64,000 nucleotides of DNA from an uncultured Candidatus Rokubacteria bacterium (lineage in GTDB: Bacteria; Methylomirabilota; Methylomirabilia; Rokubacteriales; DASRDR01), in the NCBI GenBank assembly GCA_963708025.1, contig CAVPSB010000018.1, positions 448,001 to 512,000 of the forward strand. The letters are read 5' to 3'. The number at the start of each line of letters is the position of its first letter. The stretch's first letter is position 1. The notes beneath the pieces are model-generated. The model was not told the DNA's origin. It saw only the letters and a list, made by a program, of their open reading frames with translations, and ran no database searches. Positions 15,883 through 43,286 of this stretch are shown in pieces. Both the position numbers and the translations under genes were made by a program.

Positions 15883-18800
15883 TCAAGGTGAGTCCCCACG
15901 CGGCCGCCCAATGGCCGCCTCCGCCTGCTCCAGCCAGAAGCGTCATGCCCATCTCGCGGTACATCGTTGTCGCGGTGGTCAGGTGGTCGCTGCGCCTCTC
16001 GCGCTGGCCGGTCCGCCGGTAGAGCTTGCCGAGCCCGAGGTGGCAGTGGGCGACCAGGGGGCGCATCCCGAGCTCCTCGATCCTAGCGAGGGCTTGGCGA
16101 TAGTGCGCGTCGGCGGACTCCACGTCAGGAGGGTCGGCCCGGGCGGCGATCTCGGCCAAGAGGCGGAGGGCCCACGCCTCGTTGCCGCGCTCCTTCTGCC
16201 GGTGGGCGAGGTCGAGGGCGCGCCGGGCGACCGCGAGCGCGTCGTCCCGGCGGCCGGCCAGGAGGTGCGCCTCCCCGAGGTAGGCGAGGAACAGCGGATG
16301 GTTGGCGATGCCCGTCACCGCGGGGTCGGCGAGCGCCTCCTCGATGAGGGCCGCGCCCTCGGGGAGGCGCCCCGACAGCGCGTACGCGTACCCGAGATGC
16401 GCGGCCGAGACGTCGAAGAGGGCCCGCACCGGGATGACCCGGCAGAGCTCGACGGCGCGCTCGAGCGGCGGGATGGCCTGCATGAGGTCGCCGCGGCGGA
16501 GAGAGACGAGCCCGAGGCTCCGGTAGGCGACGACGAGGCTGCGAGGATGATCGATCTCGCGGGCGATCCGGCCGGCCTCGTCGGCGCGCGCCATCGCCTC
16601 GGCGAACTCGCCCAGCTCCGCGAGGCACCAGGCGAGCCCGTCCCGCATGAAAACGGATGTCGCAATGTTGGTTTCCAACCGTTCGTACCGCCGATCGCCC
16701 TGAAGCGCCTCGACGGCCCGGCTGAGGCACTCGGCAGCCTGTCGATAGTCGCCAATGGTCTGCCAGACGATCGCCCAGGCGCTGGGTCGCCCACGTCTGG
16801 AGAGAGACGTCATCGCGGCCGGTGGCGAGGACGAAGGCCCGCTGGGCCAGCTCGAGGGCGCGGTCCGGGTCACCTCCATCCAGGTCAGGACCGCGAGCCG
16901 GGCCAGGGCCCGCCCCAGCCGGCCTCCGTCGCCCAGCGTCTCGGCGAGGCGCTCGGCCTCGCGGGCATGCTCGGTGACCTTCGCCCGCCTGCCCATTGCC
17001 CCAGGGCGACGCTGGCGTCGAGGTGGAGGTCGATGGCCTGCTCCGTCCGCGCGCGACTCTCCGGAAGGTGCTGGAGCGCGTCGAGCGCCTGGTCGAAGCC
17101 GGCCGCCGCCTCCCGGTAGGCCGAGCGCTCCATCGCCTTCGCCCCGGCCTGACGGAGATAGGGGACGGCCTTCTCCCACACTTCGCCCCGAAGCGCGTGG
17201 TGAGCCAGGCGCTCGACGTGCTCCGCGAGCCGCTCGGGGTAGCATCGCTCGATGGCCTCGACCGCCCGGGCGTGGAGTCGCGCGCCGGCGGTCCTGCAGG
17301 AGGCTTCCGTAGGCCACCTCGTGGGTGAGCGCGTGCTTGAAGGTGTACTCGACGTCGGGGAACAGGCTCGTCTCGTAGAGGAACTCGGCCGCCTGGAGCC
17401 GGGCCAGGCCATCGGCCAGCGCGTCCGCGGGTCGCTTCGGCGACGCCCGCGAGCACGGCCATCGGGACGTCGGTGCCGACGACCGAGGCGGTCTGGAGCA
17501 GCGCCTTGTCCTCCGGCGGCAGCCGGTCGATGCGCGCCGCCAGGATGGCCTGCACCGTCGCCGGCACGTGGACGGTCTCCCGAGCCTTCACGAGCCGATA
17601 CCCACCGCGCTCGCCTGCGAGCACCCCGTCGTCCACGAGGCTCCGCACGCTCTCCTCGAGGAAGAAGCGGGTTGCCCTCGGTCCGCGCGAGGAGCAGCCG
17701 TTTCAAGGGCTCGAGGCCGGCGTCGCTCCCGAGCAGAGTCTCCAGCAGCACCGCCGCATTCTCCGGCGCGAGCGGGTCCAGCCGGAGCTGACGGTAGTAG
17801 GTCTTCCCGCCCCAGTCGTGCCGGTACTCCGGGCGGTAGTTGACGAGGAGCAGCACCCGGGCCGTCGGCAGACTCTGCGCCTCGGAGAATGGGCGCACCT
17901 CCGAACGCCAGATCACCACAGCGCCGATCGGGATTCCCTCGCGCAGCATCGGCACAGCCAGCACCGTTCGCAGGTGGAGAATCGACTGCGCCGGATTGCG
18001 GTATTGCGGATCCTGCGTGACGTCGGGGATGTGGATGACCTGACCCTCCATCACCGCCCGGCCCACTGCGGACTCCCGCCCCGGCTCTATCACCGCCACT
18101 ACGGACTCCCGCCCCGGCCGTTGCGGAAAGGCCTTCCGGATAGCCTCAACATCCGCCGGTGTGAATCCGAAGGTCGCTTCAAGCGAGAGCAGCTCCCCAT
18201 CGAAGCGCAACAGGTTGCTGCGCGTGGCCCCGCACAGACGAGCCGCGCTCTGGACGATCGTGTCGAAGACTGGCTGGACGTCGGTGGGGGAACTCGAGAT
18301 GACGCGCAGGATCTCACTCGTCGCCGTCTGCTGCTCGAGCGCCTCTGTCAGATCGCGGTTCTTCACTTCGAGTTCCTTGAACAGACGGACGTTCTCGATG
18401 GCGATCACGGCCTGATCCGCGAACGTTTGGAGAAGTGCGATCTGCTTGTCCGCGAAGGGCCGGACCTCGTGGCGTCGAATGGTGATCACGCCGATCGCCA
18501 CCCCCTCGCGGAGCAGCGGCACTGCCAGCATTGTGCGGACGCCTCTTTCCAAAGCGAACTGGGGCATGCCTGGAAAGTCATCTCGAGCGGCGACCACGAT
18601 GTCGTGGATGTGGATGGGTACAGCGTCAAGCACGGCACGACCGCTCGGCACATCGCGTCGAATCCGAACATTGTCATCCCACGCCGGCCCGTGGACAGCC
18701 ATAGTCTGAAGGAACTCTCCGTGAACACGCCGCACGGCAGCATCGGTCGCGCCGCACAGCCGGGCGGCGCTTTCAGCTATCGTGTCGAAGACCGGTTGGA

Positions 18801-21156
18801 GATCGGTCGGCGAGCTCGCGATCACTCGCAGAATCTCGCCCGTGGCGGTCTGCTGGTCGAGCGCCTCTTTCGTCTCGTTGAATAGCCGGACGTTCTCGAT
18901 CGCGATCACGGCCTGGTCGGCAAACGTCTTGAGCAGCCGTATCTGATCATCCGAGAATGGACCCACCCGCGCGCGCGACACTGCGATTGCTCCGATGGGG
19001 CGCCCCTCTCGCAGTAAGGGTACCGCCACGAGGCTTTGGCCCCCGGTACGGGATACGTATTCCTGGTCGTAGTCCGGATCCTGCCGCGTGTCGGGGATAT
19101 GGACAATCGCGCGGTCCACGATCGCTCGGGGCAGCGCGAAGGCTCGGGAGAGTCGCATAGGGTACCGCGGCGCAAGGACCTTCAGCCGGTCAGGAGCGAT
19201 GTCGTAGGCGGCGACAAGGTGAGCCAGCTCCCCGTCCAAACGGATGACAGCACCCGCGTCTCCCTCGCACAGCTGGACCGCACTCCGTGCGATGGTGTCG
19301 AACACGGGTTGGACATCGGTCGGGGAGCTACTGATTACTCGAAGGATCTCCGCCGTCGCCGTCTGCTGCTCGAGCGACTCGGTCAGCTCAGCGTTCCGCG
19401 CCTGCAGCTCGTGGAACAGCCGGACGTTCTCGATGGCGATGACCGCTTGGTTGGCAAAGGTCTCTAGGAGTTCGATCTGCCTCGCCGAGAAGGGCCGAGC
19501 GTCCGCCCGGCGGATCAGGATGGCGCCCAGAGGCACGCCCTCGCGGAGGAGCGGCGTGGCCAGAAGCGTCCGGATCCTTATCGACGTGCCCTCGGATGCG
19601 AGTGCCCGCGTTTCCGGGAACTCCGTCTCGGGCAACGCCAGGAGGTCTTCGACGTGAATCGTCCGTCGCTCTAGCACGGCCCGGCCCGTCACATGCCCAC
19701 GCCTGGCAGGGACTATGTCCCCGATACTCAGAGGCCTCGGCAGCACTCCGTGCTGAGCGACGAATCGCAAGACTTCCCCATCGAAACGAAAGATGGCCGA
19801 ATCGATGGCACCGCAGACCCGCGCGGCGTTCTCGGCTACCGTGTCCATGACCGGCTGGAGATCGGTCGGCGAGCTCGCGATCACCCGCAGGATTTCGCCC
19901 GTCGCGGTCTGCTGATCCAGCGCCTCGGTCACCTGCGCGTGTGCTTGTGTGAGGGCACGGTTCTTCTCTTGGAGTTCCGTGAACAGCCTCACGTTCTCGA
20001 TCGCAATCACCGCCTGGTTCGCGAACGTCTCGAGCAGCGCGATTTGCTCGTCGGAGAATGGCGTCGGCTCGGCCCGCGACACGCTCACCGCCCCGATAGC
20101 ACGGCCCTCCTGGAGCATCGGCGCCACCAGGATGCTCCGATACCCGAGGGCTCGCCCTCGAGCGCGGGACCACTCGGACATCGTCGGATCGGTCTCGACG
20201 TCGAGAACGTGGACGATTCGGCCGCCCTCCGAGATTGCTCGGTCGATCAGGCTTTCCAGGGTGCCCAGGCGTCGGGGATACGCACGGTGAAGCCGCTCGA
20301 GGGCGTCCGGCGTCGTGTGGTTGGTCGCCACCAGATGGAGCATCTCACCGTCATAACGCGCGACGGTACTGTAGAGACCCGAGCAGAGGCGCACGGCGCT
20401 GGCCGCGATCGCGTCGAAGACGGGCTGGAGGTCGGTCGGCGAGCTCGCGATCACCCGCAGGATCTCGGCCGTGGCGATCTGTTGCTCGAGCGCCTCTTTC
20501 GTCTCGTTGAACAGGCGGACGTTCTCGATGGCGATGACCGCCTGGTTGGCGAAGGTCTCGACTAGCTCGATCTGCTTGTCGGTGAAGGGCTGCGGCACGG
20601 TTTTCGCGACGAAGATCACGCCGACGACTCTACCCTCGCGCAAGAGCGGGGCGCCGAGCGCGGCCCGCCAGTCGCCAATGTCCTGAGCGCCACTCCAGGC
20701 ATAGTCCGTCTCGGCCAGCACATCGGCCACCTGAACAACTCTGGCCTCCAGCGCGGCTCGCCCGGTGATGCTGCCATGATTCACCGGGACCGGGCGGCTC
20801 TTGAAATAGTCCCTGATTCGTGCGTGCACCTCGGTCGCAAGACCGAAACTGGCGGCGTAGCGGAAGATTTCGCCCTCGCGCTGGAACAGCAAGGCATGAT
20901 CGGCATCGCAAAGCCGGACGGCCGACTCGCAGAGTGCGTCGAGCACGGTCTGCAGGTCGAACGCCGAGCGGCTGATGACCTTTAGCACATCGGCGGTGGC
21001 GGTCTGCTGCTGCAGCGCCTCGGTCAGGGCGTGCTGAAGGTCTTCATATGACTGTCCTCGGGGGCCGGTCTCGCGCGTAGGCGTAAAAGGCGTACCACAT
21101 TCAAGACAGAACTTGGCGTGCGAGGGGTTGTCCTGATGGCACCGGACACACTTCAT
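15883..21156 (-). CDS. Zinc ribbon + six GAF domains fused to a truncated AAA-ATPase/TPR module (internal deletion, frameshifts)
   Basis: CVRC...FCLECG; six QQ(T/I)AT...IAIENVRLF-type GAF units, the sixth cut at RPFSEAQ and joined to SLPTARVLLLVNYRPEY; TPR tail similar to the 10320-14484 gene. Confidence 0.85.
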
Positions 21157-21213
21157 ACCGCGGCCTCCAACTGGGGCAGCCGGACCGGTCTCCGACGCAG
21201 AACGAATGGGGGG

Positions 21214-21242
21214 AGCTTAGCCGGTGGTTCCCCCGGGGTCAA
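21214..21242 (-). promoter_or_regulatory. Sigma70-like promoter for the GAF gene
   Basis: Minus strand TTGACC-N17-TAAGCT, ~60 nt upstream of ATG 21156. Confidence 0.55.
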
Positions 21243-21423
21243 GGATCGCCGATTCGGCGCGGAACCGTAGTCTAACCCGCACGTGCGCCGGCGGAGCGAG
21301 CAACGCGAGCCCGCCGCCCGCTGAAGCGTGATGATTCTCATTCAGGCCTCCTCCCTGCCACCGGCAGGGTAAGGTGATTGCGGCCAAACAACACCCGCCC
21401 CACCGGGGCAAGGAGGAGACCGG

Positions 21424-22476
21424 ATGAGATTCTACACAACGCAGCACCGATACTACTGCGGCATCGATCTGCACGCCCGACACGATGTACGTCTGCGTCC
21501 TCGACGCCGAGGGCAAGGTGCGCGTCCACCGCAACGGCCCGGCCAGCCCGGAGCACTTCCTGGCCACGATCGCGCCGTACCGCGAGGATCGTCGTCGTGG
21601 CCGTCGAGTGCATCTTCACCTGGTACTGGCTCGCCGATCTCTGCGCCCAGGAGGGCATCCCCTTCGTCCTCGGCCACGCCCTCTACATGAAGGCCATCCA
21701 CGGCGGCAAGGCCAAGAACGACAAGATCGACTGCCCACAAGATCGCCGTGCTGCTCCGCGGCGGCATGATCCCCATGGCCTACGTCTACCCGCGCGAGAT
21801 GCGGGCCACCCGCGATCTGCTGCGCCGGCGCTGCCACCTCATGCGCAAGCGCGCCGAGCTCCTCGCCCACATCCAGAACACCACCAGCCAGTACAACCTG
21901 CCCGCGCTTCGGCAAGAAGATCGCCTACAAGGCCAACCGCGACCGGCGTGGCCGAGCACTTCCCCGATCCCGAGGTCCGCAAGAGCATCGAGACGAACCT
22001 CGCCCTGCTCGATCACTACGATCGGCTGCTCACCGACCTCGAGCTGCACCTCACCCGCACCGCCAAGGTGCCACGACCCCAACGCCTTCTACCGCCTGCG
22101 CTCGGTGCCCGGGATCGGCAAGATCCTGGCCCTGGTGATCCTCTACGAGATCCACGACATCGACCGCTTCCCCCGCGTCCAGGACTTCGTCTCCTACTGC
22201 CGCCTGGTCAAGTGCGCCAAGGAGTCCGCCGGCAAGCACTACGGGTACTCGGGCAAGAAGATCGGCAACGCCCATCTCAAGTGGGCCTTCTCCGAGGCCG
22301 CCGTCCTCTTCTTGCGCAAGAACCCCGCGGGCCAGCACTACGTCGCGACGCCTCGCGCCAGCAAGCACGGCAAGGCCAAGGCGCTCACCATCCTGGCCCA
22401 CAAGCTGGGCGCGGGCCGTCTACTACATGCTCCACGCGCCAGCAGGCCTTCGATCCGAAGACGTTCTTTGGCCTGA
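21424..22476 (+). CDS. IS110 DEDD recombinase/transposase (frameshifted)
   Basis: YCGIDLH, VAVEC, KAKNDKID, RSVPGIGKILA, ESAGK, GNAHLKWAFSEAA, AHKL. Confidence 0.92.
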
Positions 22477-23158
22477 GCGGGACCAGCGAGACGTCCGCGT
22501 TGCGCGCCGAGGCCGAACACGACGCTCTGCTGGTAGGCCGGGGATCAGCCGGCGTTCAGAGCGCGAGGCCTAGGACGCGCACGTCCGTGTGCGCGCGAAT
22601 CCACGGTGGCCGCCATGACCAGCCGACCGAGCGAACGCTGACGACTCGAGGGGAACGGAAGAGCCTTCCGCCTAACTGGACCTGCCTGAGGGACCGAGCC
22701 CGACCGATGCCGCGTCGATCCTGCGGCCGCGACCGCCTGCCGGCATCTGGGCCGTGATGGTCCCGGAGTCCTGGCGTTGATTGGACTCCCGTTCCCGCTC
22801 GACGATCTTCTCGGCGCGCCGTTCGGCCCGAGAGCTGTGGGCTGCCCCTCACCCGAGCCGCGAGCTAACTGGACCGGTCAACGCGACCAGAGCCCGACGC
22901 TTTGAATCGGCCGGCGACGAGGGAACCGATGAGTTTCTAGGCCGCGGAGAGGCTGCGTTCTCTCCGCTCCGGTGACCCGACGGCTATCCGTGTCGCCGGA
23001 TCGAGCGTCGATAAGTGTTTGGTGCAGACCGCAGAGTCTGACGCCGCCTGTCGGAAATCAAGTCAGCGCACGTCTCGCGGACCCGGACGTCGTGCCGCTT
23101 CGTCACGCGGGAGCCCCTCCGCCCCCGCGACGGGAGCGGTGTCGTCCTCTTGACAACT
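22477..23158 (+). ncRNA. Candidate bridge/seek RNA region in the IS right end
   Basis: Non-coding ~680 nt; GATAAGTG (23010-23017) copies the donor end, is followed by a hairpin and GGAAATCA; duplicated GAGCC-N5/6-CTAACTGGACC modules. Confidence 0.6.
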
Positions 23159-23424
23159 GGAGGCCTGATAAGTGTTGGGCGATCGATGTCTCGGCCCCAG
23201 TTGCACAGACAGATCACTACGGATTTCCCGGCCTGCGAAAGGAGTAGTTCGCGGCCGCCGATACCTGCGACCCGGTGGTAGCTCTGCCTGGACCAGTAGC
23301 CCTTGTAGACAGCGGTCACAGGACGATCAGTTCTATGCGTCTGCTGCCGGAAGGCTTCTTGAAGAATCTCCCGCCGTGACAGGGGTCGGCCGGCGATCCG
23401 GGCCGATTTGGCTCATGAACGGGC

Positions 23425-23715
23425 TCATACGGACGGGCCCGCGCGTCCCACCGTCGATTCCGCGCGGTTTTGCGTGGCTGAGGACAACGGTCTCTGGGAC
23501 CGGCGCGGTCGGCCGAGGCCCTGCTCCCGCGCCTCCAGCCAGCGCAGCAGCCTAGCCTTCGGGAAGCGGACCGTGCGGCCGATCCTCAAGACGGGCATGC
23601 TGGCGTCCTCGCTGGCCCACCGGAAGACGGACTTGACGCTGACCTGCAGCATCTCGGCGAGCTGCTCGGCCGTCCAATACTCCTTCACCGGCGCCGCTGC
23701 GAGAAGGTCAGGCAT
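23425..23715 (-). CDS. Excisionase-like HTH (HTH_17/AlpA-like)
   Basis: YWTAEQLAEMLQVSVKSVFRWA...PVLRIGRTVRFPKARLLRWL. Confidence 0.85.
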   Translation of the reverse strand: MPDLLAAAPVKEYWTAEQLAEMLQVSVKSVFRWASEDASMPVLRIGRTVRFPKARLLRWLEAREQGLGRPRRSQRPLSSATQNRAESTVGRAGPSV

Positions 23716-24237
23716 CGACGAGCCCCCATGGCCGAGCGAACCCATCGGGCGGCCGAGGCGGCTCAACGCCATGACCGCGTGCTTCTACCGGGACCGACGC
23801 GAGGCGATGAAAAACTGGCGCCTGCTGCAGCGGTTGGGCTTGTTGGATGACTACCTCCGAGCCTCCCCACGCGACACTCAAGACTGCGAAGCTGTCCCTT
23901 GGTGTCGCCGGTGAGGCCGGTTGCTGGCTCGAGCTGTCTCTGGATCACGAGCCCGCTCCCTCCGTCGAGTCGTTGTCCGCCGAGGCCCTTTCGCTGCTCG
24001 ACGAGCTCACGTGGATGTCGCGCTCGGCGAGCCACGTGCGGATGGCGTCCTCGCCGCGGAGGGTGTCCGCACAGATGAGGACGTCGGTCGCGATGAATGC
24101 GTGACCCCGGCAGGAGCCGATGATCAGAATGCTCGAACCCTGACCAGGCCCCGGTGTCTGGCGGCTGGTGGTTGGAAGCTCCGACTTGTCTGGTGAAATG
24201 CGCCTGGCTGCCATGTCGTCGTCCGTCGGCCCGTCTC

Positions 24238-25515
24238 TCATGGGGTATCGTGGTCCCCGTCGACCCGGGGCTCGGTTCTCGGCGCAGACGTGCGGCCTGT
24301 GCTGGGACCCTCGGCCCCGCAAGGACCTCCCTCGACGCGCTTCGCTTTCCGGTGCCCGAACCATGGCGGCGTGGCACTCCATGCGGAGACCAGGCGGCGC
24401 TCGGTGTCGGGCCGGCGCTTCAGGAAGGCCGCGAGCGCACGACCGTCGGCAGTGAGGAGCGGCCAGGGATCGGCCCCGGTCTCGGTCGCCGCGCGGAAGA
24501 CGGCCGCGGCGTCGTACCGCCCCTTCGTGGGGAAGAAGCCGAGCTCCACCCCGTCGAGCGCCAGGGGGTCGCGGTCCTGGAGGTATTGCCTGAGACGCTC
24601 GCGGAGGCGAGCGACGCGGGCCTCACCAGTCAGGAGCAGCGCTGCGAGGCGGCGGGCCTCGGCCTCGTCGGGGATCGGCGCCTCATCCATGGCCTCGAGG
24701 GCGGCCAGGCCGGCCGGACACCGGTTCACCCAGGGGCAGGTCGCACACGCGGTCGAGGGCCGGGGCGGGAACGCGCCGGGATCGTCGGGGGTGGCGAGGG
24801 CCTGGGCGATACGAGCCGCGGTCGTCCGAGCCCAGGCCAGTGTCTCGGCGGTGTCCGCCGGAGTGAAGGCCGTGCGGGCGACCCGGCGGGTGCGAAGGTA
24901 GTGGTACTCGACCGTGACCGCCTCGAGCCGCGGCGCCCACGCCCACAGCAGCGCCGCGTAGCAGCCCGGTGCCCATGCCCACTGCAGAGTCTCGTCGTCC
25001 TCCGTGGCCCAGCCGCTCTTCCAGTCGCACACCGTGGCCCGCCGGCCATCCAGGGCGACGAGATCGAGCCGGCCGCGGAGAAAGGCGGCCGGGGCGTCCC
25101 ACCCGACCTGCCGGCCTCCAGCGTCGATCGCGAGCGCGTGCTCGACCGCCACGGTGTGTTCCACCGACACGACCCCGTGAGCGAGCCAGGTGCTCACGAG
25201 GGCCGAGGCCTCGCGGGCGACCGCGGTCCCTGCCTCGTCTGGCAGGGCATGCCGGGTCACTAGATCCCGTGCGAGCGCCGGTATCCGATCGAGCGGCGGC
25301 CAAGTGCCAGTGGCCTGGGCCTCGCGGACGTACGCCTCGACCAGCGCGTGGGCCACCGACCCGACTAGGCGGGGCCGCTGATCGGCGACCGGCTGCGGGA
25401 GTCGCAGCACGTACTCGAACCGGTACGCCGCGGGACACCGGTCCCAGGCGTCGAGGCGCGAGGGACTGACCCGCGGGAGCTTCTCGGTGGCCGTCTGGAG
25501 CGCGGTCACACTCAT
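24238..25515 (-). CDS. PD-(D/E)XK nuclease, RecB/AddB/Cas4-like with 4-Cys Fe-S motif
   Basis: SPSRLDAWDRCP, GSVAH, LRGRLDLV, DWKSG, CATCPWVNRCP; ATGA-coupled to UvrD. Confidence 0.85.
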   Translation of the reverse strand: MSVTALQTATEKLPRVSPSRLDAWDRCPAAYRFEYVLRLPQPVADQRPRLVGSVAHALVEAYVREAQATGTWPPLDRIPALARDLVTRHALPDEAGTAVAREASALVSTWLAHGVVSVEHTVAVEHALAIDAGGRQVGWDAPAAFLRGRLDLVALDGRRATVCDWKSGWATEDDETLQWAWAPGCYAALLWAWAPRLEAVTVEYHYLRTRRVARTAFTPADTAETLAWARTTAARIAQALATPDDPGAFPPRPSTACATCPWVNRCPAGLAALEAMDEAPIPDEAEARRLAALLLTGEARVARLRERLRQYLQDRDPLALDGVELGFFPTKGRYDAAAVFRAATETGADPWPLLTADGRALAAFLKRRPDTERRLVSAWSATPPWFGHRKAKRVEGGPCGAEGPSTGRTSAPRTEPRVDGDHDTP

Positions 25516-27401
25516 GACGGGGTAACCTCCACGGTAGTTATGGTGATAGGCCTCGTCGGAGCCGACCGGATGTCGAGGCCTGATTCCCGGAGGAAGCGGG
25601 AGGGCGGCCGAAACACGACATCGCCCCAGAGGCGGCGCATCCGGGCCACCGAGCACACGAGCCGCTGACGCGCCCGGGTCATGCCGACGTAGCAGAGGCG
25701 GCGCTCCTCGGCGAGCGCCTCGGGAATGGTGTGGCGGTAGTGCGGCAACAGTCCCTCCTCGATCCCGACGATGACCACCGTGTCGAACTCGAGACCCTTG
25801 GCCGCGTGCAGCGTGAGGCCGAGCACCTGCGTCGCGGCCGGGGCCCGGGCGTCCTTCTCGCTCAGCACGACCGTGTCGAGGAACTCGCCCAGGTTCTCGC
25901 CGCCGTCCGCCTCCCACCGCCGCGTGAGGGCGACCAGCGCGGCCATATCCTCGGCGCGACGAGCCTCCGGGCTTTCGTCCGGGCGATGGCCGTGGATCTC
26001 CCGCGCCAGCGTCTCGAGGAGCTGGCTGACCGGGGCCGGCCCGGTCCGCCAGATCGCGAGCTGCTGGAGGAGCGCGGCCAGCCGCGGACGGGTTCGCGCG
26101 GCCTCGGTCAGCGCCGCGGCGACCCCCACGCCGGCGGCGCGGGCGCGAAGCGTGGCCAGGGTCTTCGCCCCGATCCCGCAGCGGAGCCCGCGCAGGATCC
26201 GGTCCCAGGCCGGCCAGTCGGCGGGGTTGACGAGCACGCGACAGACGGCGAGGCAATCGCGTACGGCGGCGCGCTCGGCCAGGGGCCGGTCCGCGAGCAC
26301 CCGGACCGTGAGGCCGCGTGCCACGCAGGCCCGCGCGATCGGGCCCAGGCACGCCGTCACCCGTGCGAGGACGGCGATGGGTGGACCACTGGTCCGCAGC
26401 CAGTCGGTGCACGCGGCGGCCAGCCCCTCGGCTTCCGCCCGGTCGTCGGGCCACGTGAGAACCGTGGGGACTGGCCCGGCCGGCCGCACCGCGGCGAGCG
26501 GCTTCGGCCGGCGGGTGCTGTTGTGCGCGATCAGGCGCGCGGCGGTCGTCACGATCTGGGGTGTGGAGCGGTAGTTCCGGCCGACGGCGAGCACCGTGCC
26601 GCCCAGGTACGTGCGCTCGAAGGCGTGAAGGCGCGTGAGGTCAGCGCCACGCCATCCGTAGATGGCCTGGTCGTCGTCCCCGGCGAGCGTCACCGCGCCG
26701 TCCGGGGCCGCGAGCGCCTCGATGAGGGCGTGCTGGAGGGCGCACAGATCCTGCGCCTCGTCAACCAGCACGGCCTGGAACCGCGCGCGCAGCGCCGCGC
26801 GCACGGCCGGCTCGCGCGCGAACAGCCCCAGGGGCTCCGCCAGCAGATCCAGAAAGTCGAAGGCGTTCGCCTCGCGACACCGGGCCTCGTAGGCGACGCG
26901 AAGGGCCGCGATCGGGGACCGTGTCGGCCCCGGCCCCGGGGCCCCGGCGACACCGGGCGTCCTGGCGCGATCGAGGGCCTCGACGAGCGTCGGCAGGTCG
27001 CCGTCGAGGCCGAGGCCCTTCACGAGGCGGGCGACGAGCCGCCGGGTGTCCTCGCGGTCGAGGATCGTGAAGGCGGGCGTCCGGCCCACCGCGGCGGCGT
27101 GGCGGCGGAGGAGCCAGGCCCCGAACCCGTGGAACGTCCCCGTCCAGAGCGCCCGGGCGCGTGGGCCGAGCGCCTGGACGAGCCGACCGCGCAGCTCGTC
27201 CGCCGCCGCGCGCGAGAACGTGAGCGCGAGGATCGCCGTCAGATCGAGCCCGTCGTGGTCGATCAGCCACTGGATCCGGTGCGTGAGGATCCGGGTCTTG
27301 CCGCTGCCGGGCCCGCAGGCGAGCAGCAGGGGCCGGGCCGGATGCGTGACCGCGGCGCGCTGGGCCGGGTGCAGCGCCGCCAGCGTCTCGTCCAGGAACA
27401 T
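25512..27401 (-). CDS. UvrD/PcrA-like SF1A helicase
   Basis: GPGSGKT, LTFSRAAA, VDEAQD, GDDDQAIYGWRGA, NYRST, LTLHAAKGLEF, EERRLCYVGMTRA. Confidence 0.95.
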   Translation of the reverse strand: MFLDETLAALHPAQRAAVTHPARPLLLACGPGSGKTRILTHRIQWLIDHDGLDLTAILALTFSRAAADELRGRLVQALGPRARALWTGTFHGFGAWLLRRHAAAVGRTPAFTILDREDTRRLVARLVKGLGLDGDLPTLVEALDRARTPGVAGAPGPGPTRSPIAALRVAYEARCREANAFDFLDLLAEPLGLFAREPAVRAALRARFQAVLVDEAQDLCALQHALIEALAAPDGAVTLAGDDDQAIYGWRGADLTRLHAFERTYLGGTVLAVGRNYRSTPQIVTTAARLIAHNSTRRPKPLAAVRPAGPVPTVLTWPDDRAEAEGLAAACTDWLRTSGPPIAVLARVTACLGPIARACVARGLTVRVLADRPLAERAAVRDCLAVCRVLVNPADWPAWDRILRGLRCGIGAKTLATLRARAAGVGVAAALTEAARTRPRLAALLQQLAIWRTGPAPVSQLLETLAREIHGHRPDESPEARRAEDMAALVALTRRWEADGGENLGEFLDTVVLSEKDARAPAATQVLGLTLHAAKGLEFDTVVIVGIEEGLLPHYRHTIPEALAEERRLCYVGMTRARQRLVCSVARMRRLWGDVVFRPPSRFLRESGLDIRSAPTRPITITTVEVTPS

Positions 27402-35443: not shown

Positions 35444-35479
35444 ACTCTGCCAGAACTCTGCCAGACGCTCTGGCAGAGT
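35444..35479. repeat. ACTCTGCCAGA x2 direct plus one inverted copy (parC/operator-like)
   Basis: 35444-35454, 35455-35465 and inverted TCTGGCAGAGT 35469-35479, in the parM-parR gap. Confidence 0.7.
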
Positions 35480-36513
35480 CAGGCCGACACAGGGTCAGGC
35501 ATCCCGTTCAGCTCCCGCTGCAGACGCTGGCCGTAGCGGAAGTACCCGATGGCGTTCTGCAGCCGGGCGTGAGGCACGATCTCGGTGTGCGGCGCGAGGG
35601 CCTGAAGGCGGGAGCCGAGCACCGCGCCGCCCCCGCCGGTCACCCAGAGGCGAGCCAGGCCGCGCGCGCCCTCGCCCCAGAGCATCCGCGCGTGCGCCAC
35701 GATCGCCTCGGCGTGCCGGTCGAGCCAGGGCTCGAGCAGCGCGCCGAGCGGGACGGTGTCGCCCCCGACGTGGAGCGCGCCGCGCCGCAGGGGCTCGTCG
35801 AGCGCGTGGGGATCCTGCTCGACGCCCCATCGCCGGTAGACCTCGCGGCCGAGGTCGAGCAGCAGGTCCGCCATCCCGGTATTGCGGGTGAGGCAGTGCG
35901 CCGGCACCACCGCGAGGCCATCGAGGGTGAAATAGTCCGTCGTCCGGAACCCGACGTCGAGCACGCCGACCCGCGCCTGGAGTCCCTCGGGCCCGGCGAG
36001 CTGACCGCGCGGGTCGAGGAGCTGCGCGAGAACAGTGCCGAGGGGCTGCGGAAGCACGCGGACCCGCCCGATCGTCACGCGCCACACGCGGCCGCCCGGC
36101 TCGAGCTGCAGCTCGTGGGTGCCCTCGAGCTGGCGGCGCAGGGTCTCCCCGTGCGGCTCGACATCCGCCACGGGCAGGCCCGTGACCAGGGTGACGGGTT
36201 CTCCGGGGTGCTCGAGCATCCGGGCCAGGGCGGTCAGGGCCAGCACCCGGAACACGGCGCCGTCCACCCACGAGCGGCTCAGCCCGACAAAGCACCGGTG
36301 CGCGAGCCGGAGGGCGCGCTCCCCCACGGTGTAACTCCGTCCGTCCACCGTGACGCCCTCGATGCCGTCCGGCCGACCATGGCGGCCCAGGCCGGTGCCG
36401 AGCCGGAACCCAGGCGCCCTCCACTCCCCCACCACCGAGGGAAAGACGTCCGTGCCGCCCGCCGTCACGCACTTGGTGTAGCCAAAGCCCACGTCTAGTC
36501 CGACGATCGTCAT
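35479..36513 (-). CDS. parM: ParM/StbA actin-like partition ATPase
   Basis: GLDVGFGYTK (phosphate 1), VTGLP, PQPLG, VLDVGFRTTD (phosphate 2), VTGGGG, NAIGY. Confidence 0.9.
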   Translation of the reverse strand: MTIVGLDVGFGYTKCVTAGGTDVFPSVVGEWRAPGFRLGTGLGRHGRPDGIEGVTVDGRSYTVGERALRLAHRCFVGLSRSWVDGAVFRVLALTALARMLEHPGEPVTLVTGLPVADVEPHGETLRRQLEGTHELQLEPGGRVWRVTIGRVRVLPQPLGTVLAQLLDPRGQLAGPEGLQARVGVLDVGFRTTDYFTLDGLAVVPAHCLTRNTGMADLLLDLGREVYRRWGVEQDPHALDEPLRRGALHVGGDTVPLGALLEPWLDRHAEAIVAHARMLWGEGARGLARLWVTGGGGAVLGSRLQALAPHTEIVPHARLQNAIGYFRYGQRLQRELNGMPDPVSA

Positions 36514-36533
36514 GGTGAGGACCTCCCGTCCGG

Positions 36534-37733
36534 TCAGCGTCGCCAGGGGCCCCCACGGCGTCGCGCCTCCTGGCGCGCGCGCCGCGGCCCCCGGACCACA
36601 GGTCGCGGTCTCCACGGCCACGGGGCCGTCAGCGGCCAGAGAAGGCGCGCGGCCGTCACGTTCGCCGCGGCCCAGAGGGTGCGCGCCTCCACTCCGCGGC
36701 GCGCGGCCCCGACCGCGAGCGGCGAGGCCAGCAGGGCCCGGGCGACCGCCTGGCGGAGGGTCGGGGGCCGCTCCGCCACGACGGGCGGTCGCAGCTCCGC
36801 GATCGACGCCTCCGCGAGCGCCGCGAGCAGCGCGCGAAACGTCGGGGGCAGGAGGGCCACCCCTTCCATCTCGCGTCGGGTGCGGAGCGTGACCCGCAGG
36901 TTGCGGTAGAGGAGGATCGGGTCCTCGAGCCATCGCGGGAGCGGGGCGGGCACGGGCCAGCACTGGAGCCGGGCGAGCCGTGGCTGCTCGGCCCGCTCGA
37001 ACCAGTGCCGCCAGATCCGGTGCGCGGTGCGCCCGCACGCGAGGGTGCGCCGCACGGACCAGCCGTGCTCCGCCGCCCTCCGGCGCGTGCCGGCCACCCG
37101 GAAGAGCATCGGGCGCTCCCGCCCGATGAACGTGACGCCCGCGTCCTCCCACGAGGCCTCCAGCACGCCGATCAGGGTCCACGTCGCAACGTCCCAGCGC
37201 GGCCGCGGCCGGGGCACGTGACACGAAGCGCCTGGGCCCGCCCAGGCGGTGATCATCGGGCGCCAGAATGGCGGGACGGCGAGGTGAGACCCGGCCGGCT
37301 GGGGCGGGCAGATCAGGCGCGCCGTCTCCAGGACGGCGATCCCCCGACCCGGCCCCGCGATCCGGTCGGCGAGCGGCGAGCGAGCGAGGAGCGCGCCGAC
37401 ACGGTCGACATCCAGCGGCGGCGCCTCGGCGTCGTCGGTCCCGCCGACGGCGAGGTCGGCCTCGGCAAGGGGCGAGTCGCCGTCCCCGGCGGTCTCCCAG
37501 GGGAACGGGGTGCCGCGCCGGAGCGCGTCCGTGAACACGCCCACACCCGCGCCGGTGTCCGTCGGCCCCGGAGGAGTGCTCAGCCGGCGGCCGCCCCAGC
37601 CGAGCCGCCAGGCGAGGCACAGCAGCGGATAGGGCCAGGGCGCCGGGACTGCCGCCTCGCCGCGCGTCACGAATCCGACCTCGTGGCCGCGCCACGCCCC
37701 CCACTCGGCCGTGCGACGCCGGATGCATCCCAT
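36534..37733 (-). CDS. Hypothetical protein (unassigned; start uncertain)
   Basis: Long ORF co-directional between ParB-like genes and parM; Trp/Arg-rich; no family recognised. Confidence 0.45.
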   Translation of the reverse strand: MGCIRRRTAEWGAWRGHEVGFVTRGEAAVPAPWPYPLLCLAWRLGWGGRRLSTPPGPTDTGAGVGVFTDALRRGTPFPWETAGDGDSPLAEADLAVGGTDDAEAPPLDVDRVGALLARSPLADRIAGPGRGIAVLETARLICPPQPAGSHLAVPPFWRPMITAWAGPGASCHVPRPRPRWDVATWTLIGVLEASWEDAGVTFIGRERPMLFRVAGTRRRAAEHGWSVRRTLACGRTAHRIWRHWFERAEQPRLARLQCWPVPAPLPRWLEDPILLYRNLRVTLRTRREMEGVALLPPTFRALLAALAEASIAELRPPVVAERPPTLRQAVARALLASPLAVGAARRGVEARTLWAAANVTAARLLWPLTAPWPWRPRPVVRGPRRARQEARRRGGPWRR

Positions 37734-42104: not shown

Positions 42105-42186
42105 TTGACTCACGTTCACGTATCGTGTACAGTCAAGTCAGATGAACGATCGTTCCTGTTTCTGGGTTGTTCACGTAGCATGAACA
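42105..42186 (+). promoter_or_regulatory. Sigma70 promoter with two inverted-repeat operators upstream of abiEi
   Basis: TTGACT(42105)-N17-TACAGT(42128); GTTCA-N7-TGTAC at 42114-42130 and TGTTCA-N7-TGAACA at 42168-42186. Confidence 0.7.
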
Positions 42187-42227
42187 CAAGCGTAGCAATG
42201 AACGTTGACGGACCCATGGGCGGCACC

Positions 42228-43286
42228 ATGCATCTGCCGGAGCGGGAAGGCAAGCTCTTGGAGGACGCTCTGATCGCCTTCAGGCGCGTCACCGGGCTGA
42301 AGGCCGGCCTCGTCCCCAAAGAGCCCAAGATCCCGAAGGGTGCGCACCCTGACGCAGTCATCGAGGTCGAGGGAGACGGAAGGCGATTCCGGTTCTTCGT
42401 CGAAGTCAAAGCCGTGGATCGTGCGGTCGCGCTCGCGACTGTCAAGCATAGGCTCGAACCATTCGGCCACCAAGGTTTGCTCGTCGCGCCCTACATCACG
42501 CCCGAGCTCGCCAACCACTGCCGGAAGCTCAACCTACCCTTTATTGACACCGTTGGGAACGCATACCTACGGGCCCCCGGACTCTATGTCTTGGTTCGCG
42601 GGGAACGCCCCCCGGAGCAAGCGGTAACGGGCACGGGCGCCCGGGCTGGAGGTACCGCCACCGCACTCCGGGTCGTGTTCGCGCTCCTCTGCAAGCCCGA
42701 GCTGCTCAATGCACCCTACCGCGACATCGTCGCGGCCGCTGGCGTGGCGCTCGGTGCGGTCGGGTGGGTGTTCTTCGATCTGCAACGCCGGGGCTATATC
42801 ATCGGCGGAACGCGAACGCGCAACCGCGGCTTCCTCGAGGCCGGCCGCCTGCTCGACGAATGGGTCACGAACTTCCCGATCAAATTGCGCCCCAAACTCA
42901 ACCCGCGCCGTTTCCGGGCACCTGACCCGGGCTGGTGGCAGCACGCCCGTCTGCCGAACGGGGCGCTCTGGGGGGGGGAAGTCGCCGGGGCTAGACTGAC
43001 CGAGTATCTCAAGCCGGCGACCTATACGATCTACGTCGATCCCACCCAGGCGCGGGAGCACATCGCCACGTTGGTGAAGGAGCATCGCCTCCGCGCCGAC
43101 CCGCAGGGCGACGTCGAGGTCCTCGATCGGTTCTGGAATCTCCCGCCGCTCGATCGCACCCGGGCAGACCTTGTGCCGCCGCTTCTGACCTACGCTGACC
43201 TGATGGCCACGCTCGATCCGCGGAACATGGAAGTCGCCAAGCGGATCCGCGCGGAACAGCTCGACCTTGCTGTCCGTCGCGCGTGA
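42228..43286 (+). CDS. Type IV TA antitoxin, AbiEi family
   Basis: FIDTVGNAYL, HTH YRDIVAAAGVALG, LLDEW, WGGE, PPLLTYADL; overlaps the toxin gene; alternative ATG at 42198. Confidence 0.85.
   Translation: MHLPEREGKLLEDALIAFRRVTGLKAGLVPKEPKIPKGAHPDAVIEVEGDGRRFRFFVEVKAVDRAVALATVKHRLEPFGHQGLLVAPYITPELANHCRKLNLPFIDTVGNAYLRAPGLYVLVRGERPPEQAVTGTGARAGGTATALRVVFALLCKPELLNAPYRDIVAAAGVALGAVGWVFFDLQRRGYIIGGTRTRNRGFLEAGRLLDEWVTNFPIKLRPKLNPRRFRAPDPGWWQHARLPNGALWGGEVAGARLTEYLKPATYTIYVDPTQAREHIATLVKEHRLRADPQGDVEVLDRFWNLPPLDRTRADLVPPLLTYADLMATLDPRNMEVAKRIRAEQLDLAVRRA

What the first reader, a model, noticed from the sequence alone, without database searches (positions are those of the whole stretch)
22655..22910. 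Duplicated CTAAC-containing modules in an unusually long IS right end: a possible multi-loop guide RNA for attC
Seen: GAGCC-N5/6-CTAACTGGACC-N9-GACC(A)GAGCCCGAC occurs twice (22661-22704, 22855-22898). GCCTAAC/GCTAAC matches the attC R box (RYYYAAC), and CGTGATG at 22753-22759 equals the left target flank plus core (21327-21333). The non-coding end is ~700 nt. Inference: two target-type loops plus one donor loop, which could read both R boxes of a folded attC or broaden target range. That would depart from the simple two-loop bridge RNA. The 7-nt match alone could be chance.
Basis: partly seen in the sequence, partly recalled or inferred. Interest (0 to 1): 0.8.

Follow-up and report, generated by a model that had tools for sequence, protein, structure and literature searches.

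The report
Guide-RNA loops of a decayed IS1111-type insertion sequence
The two repeated CTAAC modules are real, but they are the standard paired loops of the guide RNA carried by a widespread family of site-specific insertion sequences, and this copy is a broken one.

Summary
The repeat is real: both copies sit at the stated coordinates, with 0 expected by chance. It is not special to this element.

The window holds one IS110/IS1111-type insertion sequence (21333-23176, + strand). Its transposase gene is broken by at least 8 frame changes.

Among relatives from many phyla, 64 of 65 distinct elements carry both modules.

- **Module 1** (22661-22704) is the 5' strand of the target-binding loop. 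Its reverse complement covaries with the right flank (z=3.6). That flank reads GTT+RRRY, like an attC R' box, in 27 of 59 junctions.
- **The matching left-target guide** is at 22773-22781 (z=4.6).
- **Donor guides** lie at 22928-22937 and 23010-23019 in a multi-branched loop (z=5.6 and 3.9).
- **Module 2** (22855-22898) heads a third internal loop inside that donor domain. It is a paralogue of the target loop. Its variable bases track neither flank nor IS end.

"Two target-type loops plus a donor loop" holds as anatomy. A second attC-reading function is not supported.

This is a new member of a known kind, of modest interest.

The parts
21265..21332 (+). Left flank: an attC-like target half. 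It holds GTCTAAC at 21271-21277, an imperfect GC-rich hairpin, then CCGCTGAAGCG and TGAT next to the IS.
   Evidence: Sequence. It resembles the left flanks of related elements, whose consensus is about GTCnGCTGCAaGCGnnTT. The reconstructed site folds, but no better than shuffles here (z=-0.6).
21333..23176 (+). Whole IS110/IS1111-type insertion sequence, 1844 bp. It is the only copy in the window.
   Evidence: The ends were set by aligning left and right junctions of up to 80 related loci. There is no second copy in the window.
21333..21423 (+). Left end. The donor right half starts GATTCTCATTC. The sub-terminal inverted repeat AGGCCTCC is at 21344-21351. A hairpin (21342-21359 with 21407-21424) covers the ribosome-binding site GGAGGAG.
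   Evidence: Inverted repeat I6. The weak microRNA-like Rfam hits merely reflect this hairpin.
21424..22480 (+). Transposase pseudogene. Homology runs in frames 1,2,3,1,2,3,1,1,3, so there are at least 8 frame changes, and those resolved are +1 shifts.
   Evidence: Three-frame translation. Ungapped tblastn with homologue P0026. Pfam Transposase_20, E=8.2e-20, on the frame-1 ORF 21748-22476.
22481..22648 (+). Spacer between the transposase gene and the RNA domain. It is the reason the right end is about 150 nt longer than the family norm.
   Evidence: Homologues with ORFs of 398-424 aa read through this stretch without conserving it.
22649..22796 (+). Unit 1, the target-binding domain (the seekRNA / TBL equivalent). 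Its closing stem pairs 22652-22661 with 22786-22795. The CC at 22664-22665 pairs with the GG at 22783-22784.
   Evidence: nhmmer E=2.2e-13. In RNAalifold on 63 sequences, all 10 closing-stem pairs show compensatory changes. The single-sequence fold gives the same stem.
22661..22704 (+). Module 1, the 5' strand of the target loop. The right-target guide CGCCTAAC is at 22669-22676. It is complementary to GTT + right flank (here GTTGGGCG, with one G-U pair).
   Evidence: Against the right flank: 246 paired of 378 versus 225.3 in shuffles, z=3.57, p=0.0002, n=54. Shifted and reversed controls range from z=-1.0 to 0.9. Natural guide/flank variants occur in L013, L024 and L061.
22753..22759 (+). It lies in a variable hairpin region and is most likely a chance match.
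   Evidence: 15 occurrences in the window against 10.3 expected. Among 45 loci, only the window matches its flank at this place.
22773..22785 (+). The 3' strand of the target loop: GGCG (left-target guide), TT (core), GAT (first bases of the left end, handshake-like), TGGA (scaffold).
   Evidence: The six bases before the core against the left flank, same sense: 107 versus 73.7 in shuffles, z=4.61, p=0.0002, n=47, with flat controls. Per-locus list. The window's own junction has 2-3 extra bases (GCG-TGA-TGA-TTC).
22842..23029 (+). Unit 2, the donor-binding domain, a multi-branched loop. The outer helix pairs 22842-22845 with 23024-23027. The branch helix pairs 22846-22850 with 22919-22923.
   Evidence: nhmmer E=5.3e-32. 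93.8% of cells are paired versus 86.9% shuffled (0 of 500 shuffles reach it) and 34-49% with slid partners. The branch helix and the inner hairpin covary; the outer helix is invariant.
22855..22898 (+). Module 2, the 5' strand of a third internal loop ('loop 2') inside the branch of the donor domain. GAGCC is at 22855-22859, N5 at 22860-22864, CTAAC at 22865-22869, followed by TGG and a hairpin.
   Evidence: It is a paralogue of module 1. A profile of this domain hits 29 of 63 unit-1 sequences in register, against 1 of 315 shuffles. There is no covariation with the right flank (z=-0.76) or the left end (p=0.12). N6 scans are flat.
22899..22914 (+). The 3' strand of loop 2: G-CTTTGAATCGG, then CCGG. 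TTGA is at 22902-22905. The GG at 22909-22910 pairs with the CC of GAGCC. 22912-22914 pairs with 22853-22855.
   Evidence: TTGA and GG are nearly invariant in 44 sequences. Covariation with the left flank is weak: z=3.07, or 2.05 after dropping L073, L075, L076 and L077.
22928..22937 (+). Candidate right-donor guide GATGAGTTTC, antisense to the first 10 bases of the left end, followed by TAGG.
   Evidence: 337 of 470 positions are paired versus 306.4 in shuffles, z=5.60, p=0.0002, n=47. Position +3 is a conserved mismatch. Shifted and reversed controls range from z=-1.9 to 2.1.
23010..23023 (+). Left-donor guide GATAAGTGTT, identical to the last 10 bases of the right end, followed by TGGT.
   Evidence: 228 of 260 identical versus 216.6 in shuffles, z=3.92, p=0.0002, n=26. 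The variable A/G position follows the end (0.81 versus 0.41). The block is conserved in most loci.
23150..23176 (+). Right terminus: TTGACA (23150-23155), the sub-terminal inverted repeat GGAGGCCT (23159-23166), then GATAAGTGTT as the last bases.
   Evidence: Alignment of 44 right junctions from related loci.
23177..23190 (+). Right flank GGGCGATCG.... Together with the terminal GTT it reads GTTGGGC, an R'-like GTTRRRY box.
   Evidence: Across relatives, 27 of 59 right junctions read GTT+RRRY. About 1 in 16 would be expected from equal base use.

Best explanation
**What it is.** The window holds one decayed copy of an IS1111-type (IS110 family) insertion sequence. Behind its transposase gene it encodes a structured guide RNA of about 380 nt, at 22649-23029. 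The two CTAAC modules are the 5' strands of two paralogous internal loops of that RNA.

**Module 1: the target-binding loop.**
- CGCCTAAC pairs with the top strand of the right half of the target. That half reads GTT plus an attC-R'-like AGGC or GGGC.
- GGCG-TT on the opposite strand of the loop is identical to the left half of the target plus the core. It therefore pairs with the bottom strand.
- The order is as reported for IS1111 seekRNAs: the top-strand match lies 5' of the bottom-strand match.

**Donor recognition.** The joined IS ends are read by two other single strands. One is antisense to the left end (22928-22937). The other is identical to the right end (23010-23019). Both lie in a multi-branched loop.

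**Module 2.** It sits in a branch of that donor domain and keeps only the common scaffold: GAGCC, UAAC-UGG and UUGA-N-U-N-GG.

**Why CTAAC recurs (inferred).** Target and donor share the same crossover bases, GTT. UAAC can pair with GTT plus A or G, and UUGA equals the TT-GA of the donor junction. On this reading loop 2 is the ancestral donor loop, reduced to holding the junction core, and is not a second reader of attC.

**Shown and inferred.** Shown here: family-wide conservation, the helices, and covariation of four guide strands with their DNA partners. Inferred: that the RNA is made and bound, and what loop 2 pairs with.
For: **Family and ends**
- Pfam Transposase_20.
- 593 of 596 candidate stretches in GTDB species genomes encode relatives; 80 loci were kept.
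- Junction alignments fix the ends and an 8-bp sub-terminal inverted repeat.

**Both units are family-wide**
- nhmmer gives 80 unit-1 hits and 90 unit-2 hits.
- 77 of 80 unit-1 hits have a unit 2 downstream.
- Of 65 distinct elements, 64 have an AAC-ending pentamer in both modules. It is CTAAC in 51 (module 1) and 44 (module 2).
- A Vibrio plasmid IS with 53% identity has the same layout.

**Guides**

| Guide strand | DNA partner | z | p |
|---|---|---|---|
| module 1 | right flank | 3.57 | 0.0002 |
| loop-1 3' strand | left flank | 4.61 | 0.0002 |
| left-donor guide | right end | 3.92 | 0.0002 |
| right-donor candidate | left end | 5.60 | 0.0002 |

Shifted and reversed controls for the two target-guide tests stay within z=-1.0 to 1.2. 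Those for the right-donor candidate reach z=2.07 and 2.10 (p about 0.025). The control for the left-donor guide had no variance and is uninformative.

**Structure**
- Compensatory changes occur in all 10 pairs of the unit-1 closing stem.
- In unit 2, 93.8% of cells are paired, and 0 of 500 shuffles reach any of the five measures.

**Paralogy.** The loop-2 domain profile hits 29 of 63 unit-1 sequences, against 1 of 315 shuffles.

**Literature**
- IS1111 seekRNAs lie downstream of tnp, with the top-strand match 5' of the bottom-strand match, and ISKpn4, ISPst6 and ISPa25 target attC (PMC11187229, passages).
- Many IS1111 bridge RNAs are predicted to carry donor-binding bases in a multi-loop (PMC11208160, section 12).
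Against: - No RNA data exist for this element, so expression, ends and processing are unknown.
- Rfam has no family that matches.
- The role given to loop 2 rests on four or five invariant bases and on analogy. Invariant bases cannot covary, so pairing with the donor core is untested.
- The right-donor candidate lacks a proper complement to the core (UA instead of AA) and has a conserved mismatch at +3.
- The 3' strand of loop 2 shows a weak but register-specific covariation with the LEFT TARGET flank (z=3.07, p about 0.002; reversed control z=-0.97). In L077 the real left junction fits loop 2 better than loop 1. This fits a second target-type loop better than my reading.
- The window's own left junction does not match its guide exactly.
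- The window's target hairpin folds no better than shuffles (z=-0.6).
- The guide tests shuffle flanks among related elements. The 26-sequence seed sets for the profiles were picked by motif, which favours elements that look alike.
Confidence: 0.6

Rival explanations
1. Module 2 is a second target-type loop that pairs with attC DNA. It would read the other R box of a folded or double-stranded attC, or an alternative site, and so widen or sharpen target choice.
For: - Loop 2 has the same build as the target loop on both strands and is more conserved than it.
- Its 3' strand covaries with the left target flank in the true register only: z=3.07, p=0.0014-0.002.
- In L077 the left junction (core AT plus 5 of 6 flank bases) fits loop 2 and not loop 1.
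- In L013 and L019 both modules carry the same variant pentamer.
Against: - The 5' strand of module 2 against the right flank gives z=-0.76, with all shifts flat.
- L017 has the variant pentamer only in module 2. L039, L061, L024 and L068 have variants only in module 1, and those fit their flanks. The pentamers therefore vary independently.
- The N6 before the pentamer shows no signal over 40 nt of left flank and 30 nt of right flank. The highest z is 3.1 among about 120 tests.
- The bases before CTAAC are not R-Y, as an R-box reader would need.
- The left-flank signal drops to z=2.05 (p=0.022) after removing three insertions of one AT-rich IS and L077.
Confidence: 0.15
2. The modules are recombinase-binding scaffold only. 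GAGCC...AAC-UGG is a protein recognition motif present once per loop, and CTAAC pairs with no DNA.
For: A Pseudomonas plasmid IS with only 34% identity has two GAGCC...ACTGG modules without CTA. GAGCC, AAC and TGG are nearly invariant in both modules.
Against: In module 1 the two bases before AAC, and the next three to five, change together with the right flank. AAC is complementary to the GTT found at every right junction.
Confidence: 0.15
3. The repeat is a local duplication or a chance feature of this one decayed copy and has no function.
For: The copy is defective and is the only one in the window.
Against: Both modules are present, in the same order and spacing, in 64 of 65 distinct relatives from many phyla. 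The helices around them show compensatory changes. None is expected by chance.
Confidence: 0.02

Closest known systems
IS1111-attC group (ISKpn4, ISPst6, ISPa25) and their seekRNAs (Siddiquee et al. 2024, PMC11187229; Post & Hall 2009 and Tetu & Holmes 2008 seen only as references there)
   Same: - A DEDD-type transposase followed by a long non-coding region.
- Sub-terminal inverted repeats.
- Insertion in one orientation at one end of attC-type sites.
- An RNA whose 5' part pairs with the top strand of the target and whose 3' part pairs with the bottom strand.
   Different: - No sequence of those elements was available here, so relatedness was not measured.
- The best plasmid relatives of this family are at most 70% identical. 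The only Pseudomonas aeruginosa plasmid hit is 34%.
- This clade is found in uncultured Binatia, Nitrospirota, Desulfobacterota, Planctomycetota and others.
- The conserved RNA domain here is about 380 nt. The reported short seekRNAs are 82-96 nt and the long ones 145-170 nt.
- The window's target is an isolated attC-like site with no integrase found nearby.
IS621 bridge RNA (Durrant et al. 2024, PMC11208160; Hiraizumi et al. 2024, PMC11208158)
   Same: - Two guide pairs, for the left and right halves of target and donor, each reading both DNA strands around a shared core.
- Bases next to the guides match the non-cognate partner, like handshake guides. Examples are GAT after the left-target guide and C after the core complement in module 1.
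   Different: - The RNA lies in the right end, not the left end.
- The order of top-strand and bottom-strand matches is reversed.
- The donor guides sit in a multi-branched loop.
- There is an extra internal loop, a paralogue of the target loop, inside the donor domain.
- The shared crossover bases are (G)TT rather than CT.
Predicted IS1111-group bridge RNAs with multi-loop donor binding (Durrant et al. 2024, section 'Diverse IS110s encode bridge RNAs')
   Same: The bridge RNA is in the right end, and the donor-binding nucleotides lie in a multi-loop rather than a simple internal loop.
   Different: The text I could read does not describe a conserved target-loop paralogue in a branch of that multi-loop. 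The figures and supplementary tables that could show one were not available to me.

Membership tests
IS110 family, IS1111 group | DEDD-type transposase with the IS110 N-terminal domain and the Transposase_20 C-terminal domain | tested here: met
   Transposase_20, E=8.2e-20, on the frame-1 ORF 21748-22476. Homologues at 61-69% identity carry PF01548 and PF02371. The window copy itself is frame-broken.
IS110 family, IS1111 group | The long non-coding region lies downstream of the transposase gene | tested here: met
   About 700 nt downstream against 91 nt upstream in the window. It is 438-1073 nt in 57 relatives.
IS110 family, IS1111 group | Sub-terminal inverted repeats | tested here: met
   AGGCCTCC at 21344-21351 and GGAGGCCT at 23159-23166. 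They lie 11 and 10 bp from the ends and are conserved in the junction alignments.
IS110 family, IS1111 group | Site-specific insertion without a target duplication | tested here: inconclusive
   The flanks share no direct repeat beyond the T or TT core. Only two convincing empty sites were found, in L007 and L008, and none for the window.
seekRNA / bridge RNA | Two strands of one loop match the two halves of the target on opposite DNA strands and change with the target | tested here: met
   Module 1 against the right flank gives z=3.57. The loop-1 3' strand against the left flank gives z=4.61. The controls are flat.
seekRNA / bridge RNA | Donor-binding strands match the joined IS ends | tested here: met
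   The left-donor guide gives z=3.92 and the right-donor candidate z=5.60. The right-donor strand lacks a full core complement.
seekRNA / bridge RNA | The RNA is transcribed, bound by the recombinase and needed for movement | not testable with these tools
   No expression data. The Rfam search found no family above threshold.
IS1111-attC group | Insertion at a fixed position and orientation in attC sites of integron cassettes | tested here: inconclusive
   - GTT+RRRY at 27 of 59 right junctions.
- Strict RYYYAAC 45-135 nt upstream in 12 of 63 left flanks, against 3 of 63 in the control.
- Of 44 reconstructed sites, 19 fold with z<-2, and bulged hairpins are seen in the examples.
- Integron integrases and cassette arrays were not examined in the loci.
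- None was found among 52 ORFs of 230 aa or more in the window.
IS1111-attC group | Sequence relatedness to ISKpn4, ISPst6, ISPa21 or ISPa25 | not tested
   No sequence of these elements was at hand. Tetu & Holmes 2008 is not held.

The most novel reading that the evidence does not exclude
**The reading.** This clade of IS1111-type elements, found in hundreds of species, uses a three-loop guide RNA. Loop 2 is a conserved paralogue of the target loop, nested in the donor multi-loop, and it would be a working DNA-binding loop in its own right. Or it could hold the integrated junctions, as a dedicated excision or handshake loop.

**Why it would be new.** Either role would be a departure from the two-loop bridge RNA.

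**What leaves it open.**
- Register-specific covariation of the loop-2 3' strand with the left flank (z=3.07).
- The L077 junction.
- Conservation of both strands of loop 2 that is stronger than in the target loop.
Probability: 0.15. Interest if true: 0.65.

Novelty: new member of a known kind. Interest (0 to 1): 0.33.

Why it matters
- **For this window.** The finding reduces to an ordinary annotation: one dead IS1111-type insertion sequence in an isolated attC-like site upstream of a GAF-domain gene.
- **For the field.**
  - The comparison shows that a large environmental clade of these elements aims at attC-like sites.
  - It gives a position-by-position map of the clade's target and donor guides.
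  - It also shows a conserved extra loop in the donor domain, whose role could be tested when IS1111-type recombinases are developed as programmable tools.

Tried and rejected
- **Rfam** (evalue mode, 20500-24500). Only six weak hits, all far below gathering scores. The microRNA-like ones reflect the left-end hairpin.
- **A second IS copy or a similar attC in the window.** None found.
- **A regex hunt for empty target sites.** 11 hits, of which only L007:5212 and L008:5036 look like real attC sites. The hit at window 23761 is probably chance.
- **The variable bases of module 2.**
  - The N6 was tested, sense and antisense, against 40 nt of left flank, 30 nt of right flank, 40 nt of each IS end, and the opposite strand of its own loop. 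There was no signal beyond what about 500 tests give; the largest |z| for the N6 was about 3.
  - In the same scans the six bases after TTGA on the 3' strand of loop 2 reached z=3.7 and 3.1 against the right end (antisense) and -4.2 against the left end. These were not followed up.
- **Module 2 as an antisense or sense guide for the left end.** p=0.12 and 0.06.
- **The regex module census.** It under-counted variants and was replaced by profile alignments.
- **Single-sequence folding of unit 2.** It does not reproduce the comparative structure (z=-1.7). I rely on the alignment counts instead.
- **Promoter and terminator scan of 22400-23400.** No promoter-like site. The one terminator-like site lies inside the gene's end.
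- **Tetu & Holmes 2008.** Not held.
- **Left unchecked.**
  - The closed metagenome and viral contig collections.
  - The supplementary figures of the seekRNA paper, which show the ISKpn4, ISPst6 and ISPa25 RNAs and could tell whether those elements have the same modules.
  - The figures of the bridge RNA papers.
Full report
**1. The observation**

The stated pattern, GAGCC-N5/6-CTAACTGGACC-N9-GACC, occurs twice in the window and nowhere else. The copies are at 22661-22695 and 22855-22888 on the + strand, and none is expected in 100 dinucleotide-preserving shuffles. In the sequence both copies run on through GACC(A)GAGCCCGAC to 22704 and 22898. The repeat finder reports the same pair.

The 7-mer CGTGATG is at 21327-21333 and 22753-22759. 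It occurs 15 times in the window against 10.3 expected, so that match carries no weight by itself.

**2. What the element is**

*The gene.* Three-frame translation shows an IS110-family transposase starting at 21424. Its homology jumps between frames. Ungapped tblastn with a 368-aa homologue places successive pieces in frames 1,2,3,1,2,3,1,1,3. That is at least eight frame changes, and every one resolved is a +1 shift. Pfam finds Transposase_20 (E=8.2e-20) on the frame-1 ORF 21748-22476.

*The context.* The window holds no second copy. The neighbours are a 1423-aa protein with six GAF domains on one side, and a PD-(D/E)XK nuclease and a UvrD-type helicase on the other. No integrase appears among 52 ORFs of 230 aa or more.

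**3. Relatives and ends**

The listed ones are 61-69% identical and 231-424 aa long. Of these, 593 encode relatives. The 80 best loci come from Binatia, Nitrospirota, Desulfobacterota, Planctomycetota, Eisenbacteria and others.

*The ends.* Aligning the junctions of these loci fixes them.
- The left end starts GAT(A/T)CTCAT, with AGGCCTCC 11 bp inside.
- The right end finishes GGAGGCCT-N-ATAAGTGTT.
- In the window the element is 21333-23176, 1844 bp.

*The length of the right end.* From the end of the gene to the end of the element is 438-1073 nt in 57 relatives, mostly 480-550. The window has about 700. The excess is a spacer of about 150 nt between the gene and the first module, shared with L001, L002 and L027.

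**4. The target**

*Right flank.* After the terminal GTT, the right flank reads RRRY in 27 of 59 junctions. AGGC, GGGC and AGAC are the commonest. GTTRRRY is the attC R' consensus as I recall it. RYYYAAC is the form given in the finding.

*Left flank.* The left flanks share a consensus of about GTCnGCTGCAaGCGnnTT.

*Fold of the rebuilt sites.* Sites rebuilt from both flanks fold into hairpins with single bulged bases on the 3' arm, for example in L012, L026, L004 and L037. Of 44 sites, 19 fold with z<-2 against shuffles, and the mean z is -1.6.

*R'' box.* A strict RYYYAAC lies 45-135 nt upstream in 12 of 63 left flanks, against 3 of 63 in a reverse-complement control. Many others have near-matches ending in AAC.

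*Verdict on the target.* The targets are attC-like. I did not check integron context in the loci. The window's own site (GTCTAAC at 21271, a GC-rich hairpin, CCGCTGAAGCG, then GTT|GGGC) is isolated and folds no better than shuffles (z=-0.6).

**5. The modules are family-wide**

I built profiles from 26 motif-selected sequences per unit.

| Unit | Hits in the 80 loci plus the window | Position in the window | E-value |
|---|---|---|---|
| unit 1 | 80 | 22649-22796 | 2.2e-13 |
| unit 2 | 90 | 22842-23029 | 5.3e-32 |

- Of the 80 unit-1 hits, 77 have a unit 2 within 700 nt downstream.
- Among 65 distinct elements with both pentamers aligned, 64 end in AAC in both modules. The pentamer is CTAAC in 51 (module 1) and in 44 (module 2).
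- A Vibrio campbellii plasmid IS at 53% identity has the same layout. A Pseudomonas aeruginosa plasmid IS at 34% keeps two GAGCC...ACTGG modules without CTA.

**6. Unit 1 is the target-binding loop**

*Structure.* RNAalifold on 63 sequences gives a 10-bp closing stem, 22652-22661 with 22786-22795 in the window. Every pair shows compensatory changes. The CC of GAGCC pairs with the GG of TTGATTGG, and an inner hairpin also covaries.

*The 5' strand.* Read as antisense, the seven bases before and into AAC pair with the right flank more often than in 4000 shuffles of flanks among elements: 246 against 225.3, z=3.57, p=0.0002, n=54. Shifted and reversed controls give z between -1.0 and 0.9. Natural variants make the point directly:
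- L013 has GCACAAC next to GTT|GTGC.
- L024 has GTATAAC next to GTT|ATAC.
- L061 has TTTAAC next to GTT|AAAG.

*The 3' strand.* The six bases before TTGAT are identical to the left flank more often than expected: 107 against 73.7, z=4.61, p=0.0002, n=47, with flat controls. Matches of 8-9 nt across the junction occur in L003, L011, L034 and L067.

*In the window.* The guides are CGCCTAAC (22669-22676) and GGCG-TT-GAT (22773-22781). The order, with the top-strand match first, is the one reported for IS1111 seekRNAs (PMC11187229, passages).

In the other 44 loci no flank match falls there.

*A mismatch in this copy.* The window's left junction reads GCG-TGA-TGA-TTC where the guide predicts GCGTTGATT. 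That is two or three extra bases, in keeping with a decayed copy.

**7. Unit 2 holds the donor guides in a multi-branched loop**

*Left-donor guide.* GATAAGTGTT at 23010-23019 is identical to the last ten bases of the element. Its one variable position follows the end (0.81 against 0.41). Overall z=3.92, p=0.0002, n=26.

*Right-donor candidate.* GATGAGTTTC at 22928-22937 is antisense to the first ten bases of the left end. 72% of positions are paired, z=5.60, p=0.0002, n=47. Position +3 is a conserved mismatch, and the complement to the core is incomplete.

*Helices I proposed*:
- an outer helix, 22842-22845 with 23024-23027;
- a branch helix, 22846-22850 with 22919-22923;
- short pairs around GAGCC;
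- a hairpin after TTTCTAGG.

Together they are 93.8% paired in 44 sequences, against 86.9% in shuffles (0 of 500 reach it) and 34-49% with slid partners. The branch helix and the hairpin covary. The outer helix never varies, so it counts neither for nor against.

This matches the remark that many IS1111 bridge RNAs carry donor-binding bases in a multi-loop (PMC11208160, section 12).

**8. Module 2**

*Where it sits.* It is the 5' strand of an internal loop inside the branch closed by 22846-22850 with 22919-22923. The opposite strand is G-CTTTGAATCGG (22899-22910).

*It is a paralogue of the target loop.* A profile of this domain hits 29 of 63 unit-1 sequences in register, 6 of them at E<=0.01, against 1 of 315 shuffled sequences.

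*Its variable bases do not behave as guides.*
- The 5' strand against the right flank gives z=-0.76.
- Against the left end, p=0.12 (antisense) and 0.06 (sense).
- N6 scans across both flanks, both ends and its own opposite strand are flat.
- The pentamer varies independently of the module-1 pentamer. It is concordant in L013, L019, L052, L055, L066 and L027, and discordant in L017, L024, L039, L061, L068, L008, L053 and others.

*What stays invariant.* AAC-TGG and TTGA do not vary.
- AAC complements the GTT present at every right end.
- U before it can pair with the A or G that follows GTT, in the target or in the donor.
- TTGA equals the last T of the right end, the core T, and the first GA of the left end.

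*My inference.* I therefore read loop 2 as the ancestral donor loop, reduced to gripping the junction core. The shared crossover bases then explain the repeated CTAAC. This step is inference.

It falls to 2.45 and then 2.05 when three insertions of one AT-rich IS, and then L077, are removed. In L077 the left junction fits loop 2 better than loop 1. I give that rival 0.15.

**9. Comparison and verdict**

The element meets the tested criteria of the IS1111 group and of a seekRNA or bridge RNA system. It works like the published attC-targeting IS1111 elements. I could not measure its relatedness to them. Their sequences, the supplementary figures showing their RNAs, and Tetu & Holmes 2008 were all unavailable.

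A search of the held literature for IS1111 together with cryo-EM, seekRNA, multi-loop or donor-binding loop found 12 papers and listed 10. The listing shows no title or abstract on an IS1111 RNA structure or on a third loop. I read passages of only one of the listed papers on that point (PMC13626964), and it concerns IS621. The first search is.

The window's feature is a new member of a known kind. It is a dead copy whose duplicated modules are the family's normal target loop and donor-domain loop.

Noticed in passing
window 21424-22540: Every resolved frame change in the transposase gene is a +1 shift (frames 1,2,3,1,2,3,1...), and the protein pieces between the breaks stay 55-100% identical to a homologue. 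The neighbouring long ORFs are intact. The pattern looks more like repeated one-base insertions, possibly assembly or sequencing errors in a repeat, than slow decay.
   Followed up: partly
window 21326-21337: The left junction reads GCG-TGA-TGA-TTC. The element's own left-target guide predicts GCGTT-GATT, so the junction has two or three extra bases that look like a short tandem duplication.
   Followed up: partly
window 21342-21424: A left-end hairpin pairs the sub-terminal repeat region (AGGCCTCCTCC) with the ribosome-binding site GGAGGAG just before the ATG. It is conserved in relatives and may block translation from read-through transcripts. It caused the spurious microRNA-like Rfam hits.
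   Followed up: partly
window 23150-23155 and related right ends: TTGAC(A), 21-22 nt before the right terminus, is nearly invariant in the family. It could be the -35 box of a junction promoter formed on circularisation. However, the spacing to the GATACT at the start of the left end is long, about 21 nt. The consensus scan found no promoter in the linear form.
   Followed up: partly
L077:4017-4377 (left junction near 2876): In this relative the left junction (core AT plus flank) matches the 3' strand of loop 2 in 5 of 6 bases plus the core. It matches the regular left-target guide in only 3 of 6. The right junction is off the contig.
   Followed up: partly
L039, L007, L030, L067, L014, L016: Several loci hold two or three copies, or partial right ends, of the same IS family within a few kb. 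In L039 they are spaced about 1.1 kb apart. This would fit insertions into successive sites of a cassette array.
   Followed up: no
L007:~790-830: A right terminus (...ATAAGTGTT) runs straight into CAGGCCTCCTCC, the inner part of a left end. This looks like a junction or deletion derivative that lacks the first 11 bases of the left end.
   Followed up: no
window 16885-21156 (-): A 1423-aa protein with an N-terminal zinc ribbon and six GAF domains. Its start codon lies about 175 nt from the IS insertion site, so the IS sits in its upstream region.
   Followed up: no
window 24238-27401 (-): A PD-(D/E)XK nuclease (738-aa ORF) next to a UvrD/REP-type helicase (629 aa). The pair looks like AddAB or a related helicase-nuclease.
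   Followed up: no
window 35479-37728 (-) and 42105-43286 (+): An actin-like (ALP/ParM-type) protein of 749 aa and an AbiEi-type antitoxin-like regulator. These hint at a mobile or defence-related stretch elsewhere in the window.
   Followed up: no
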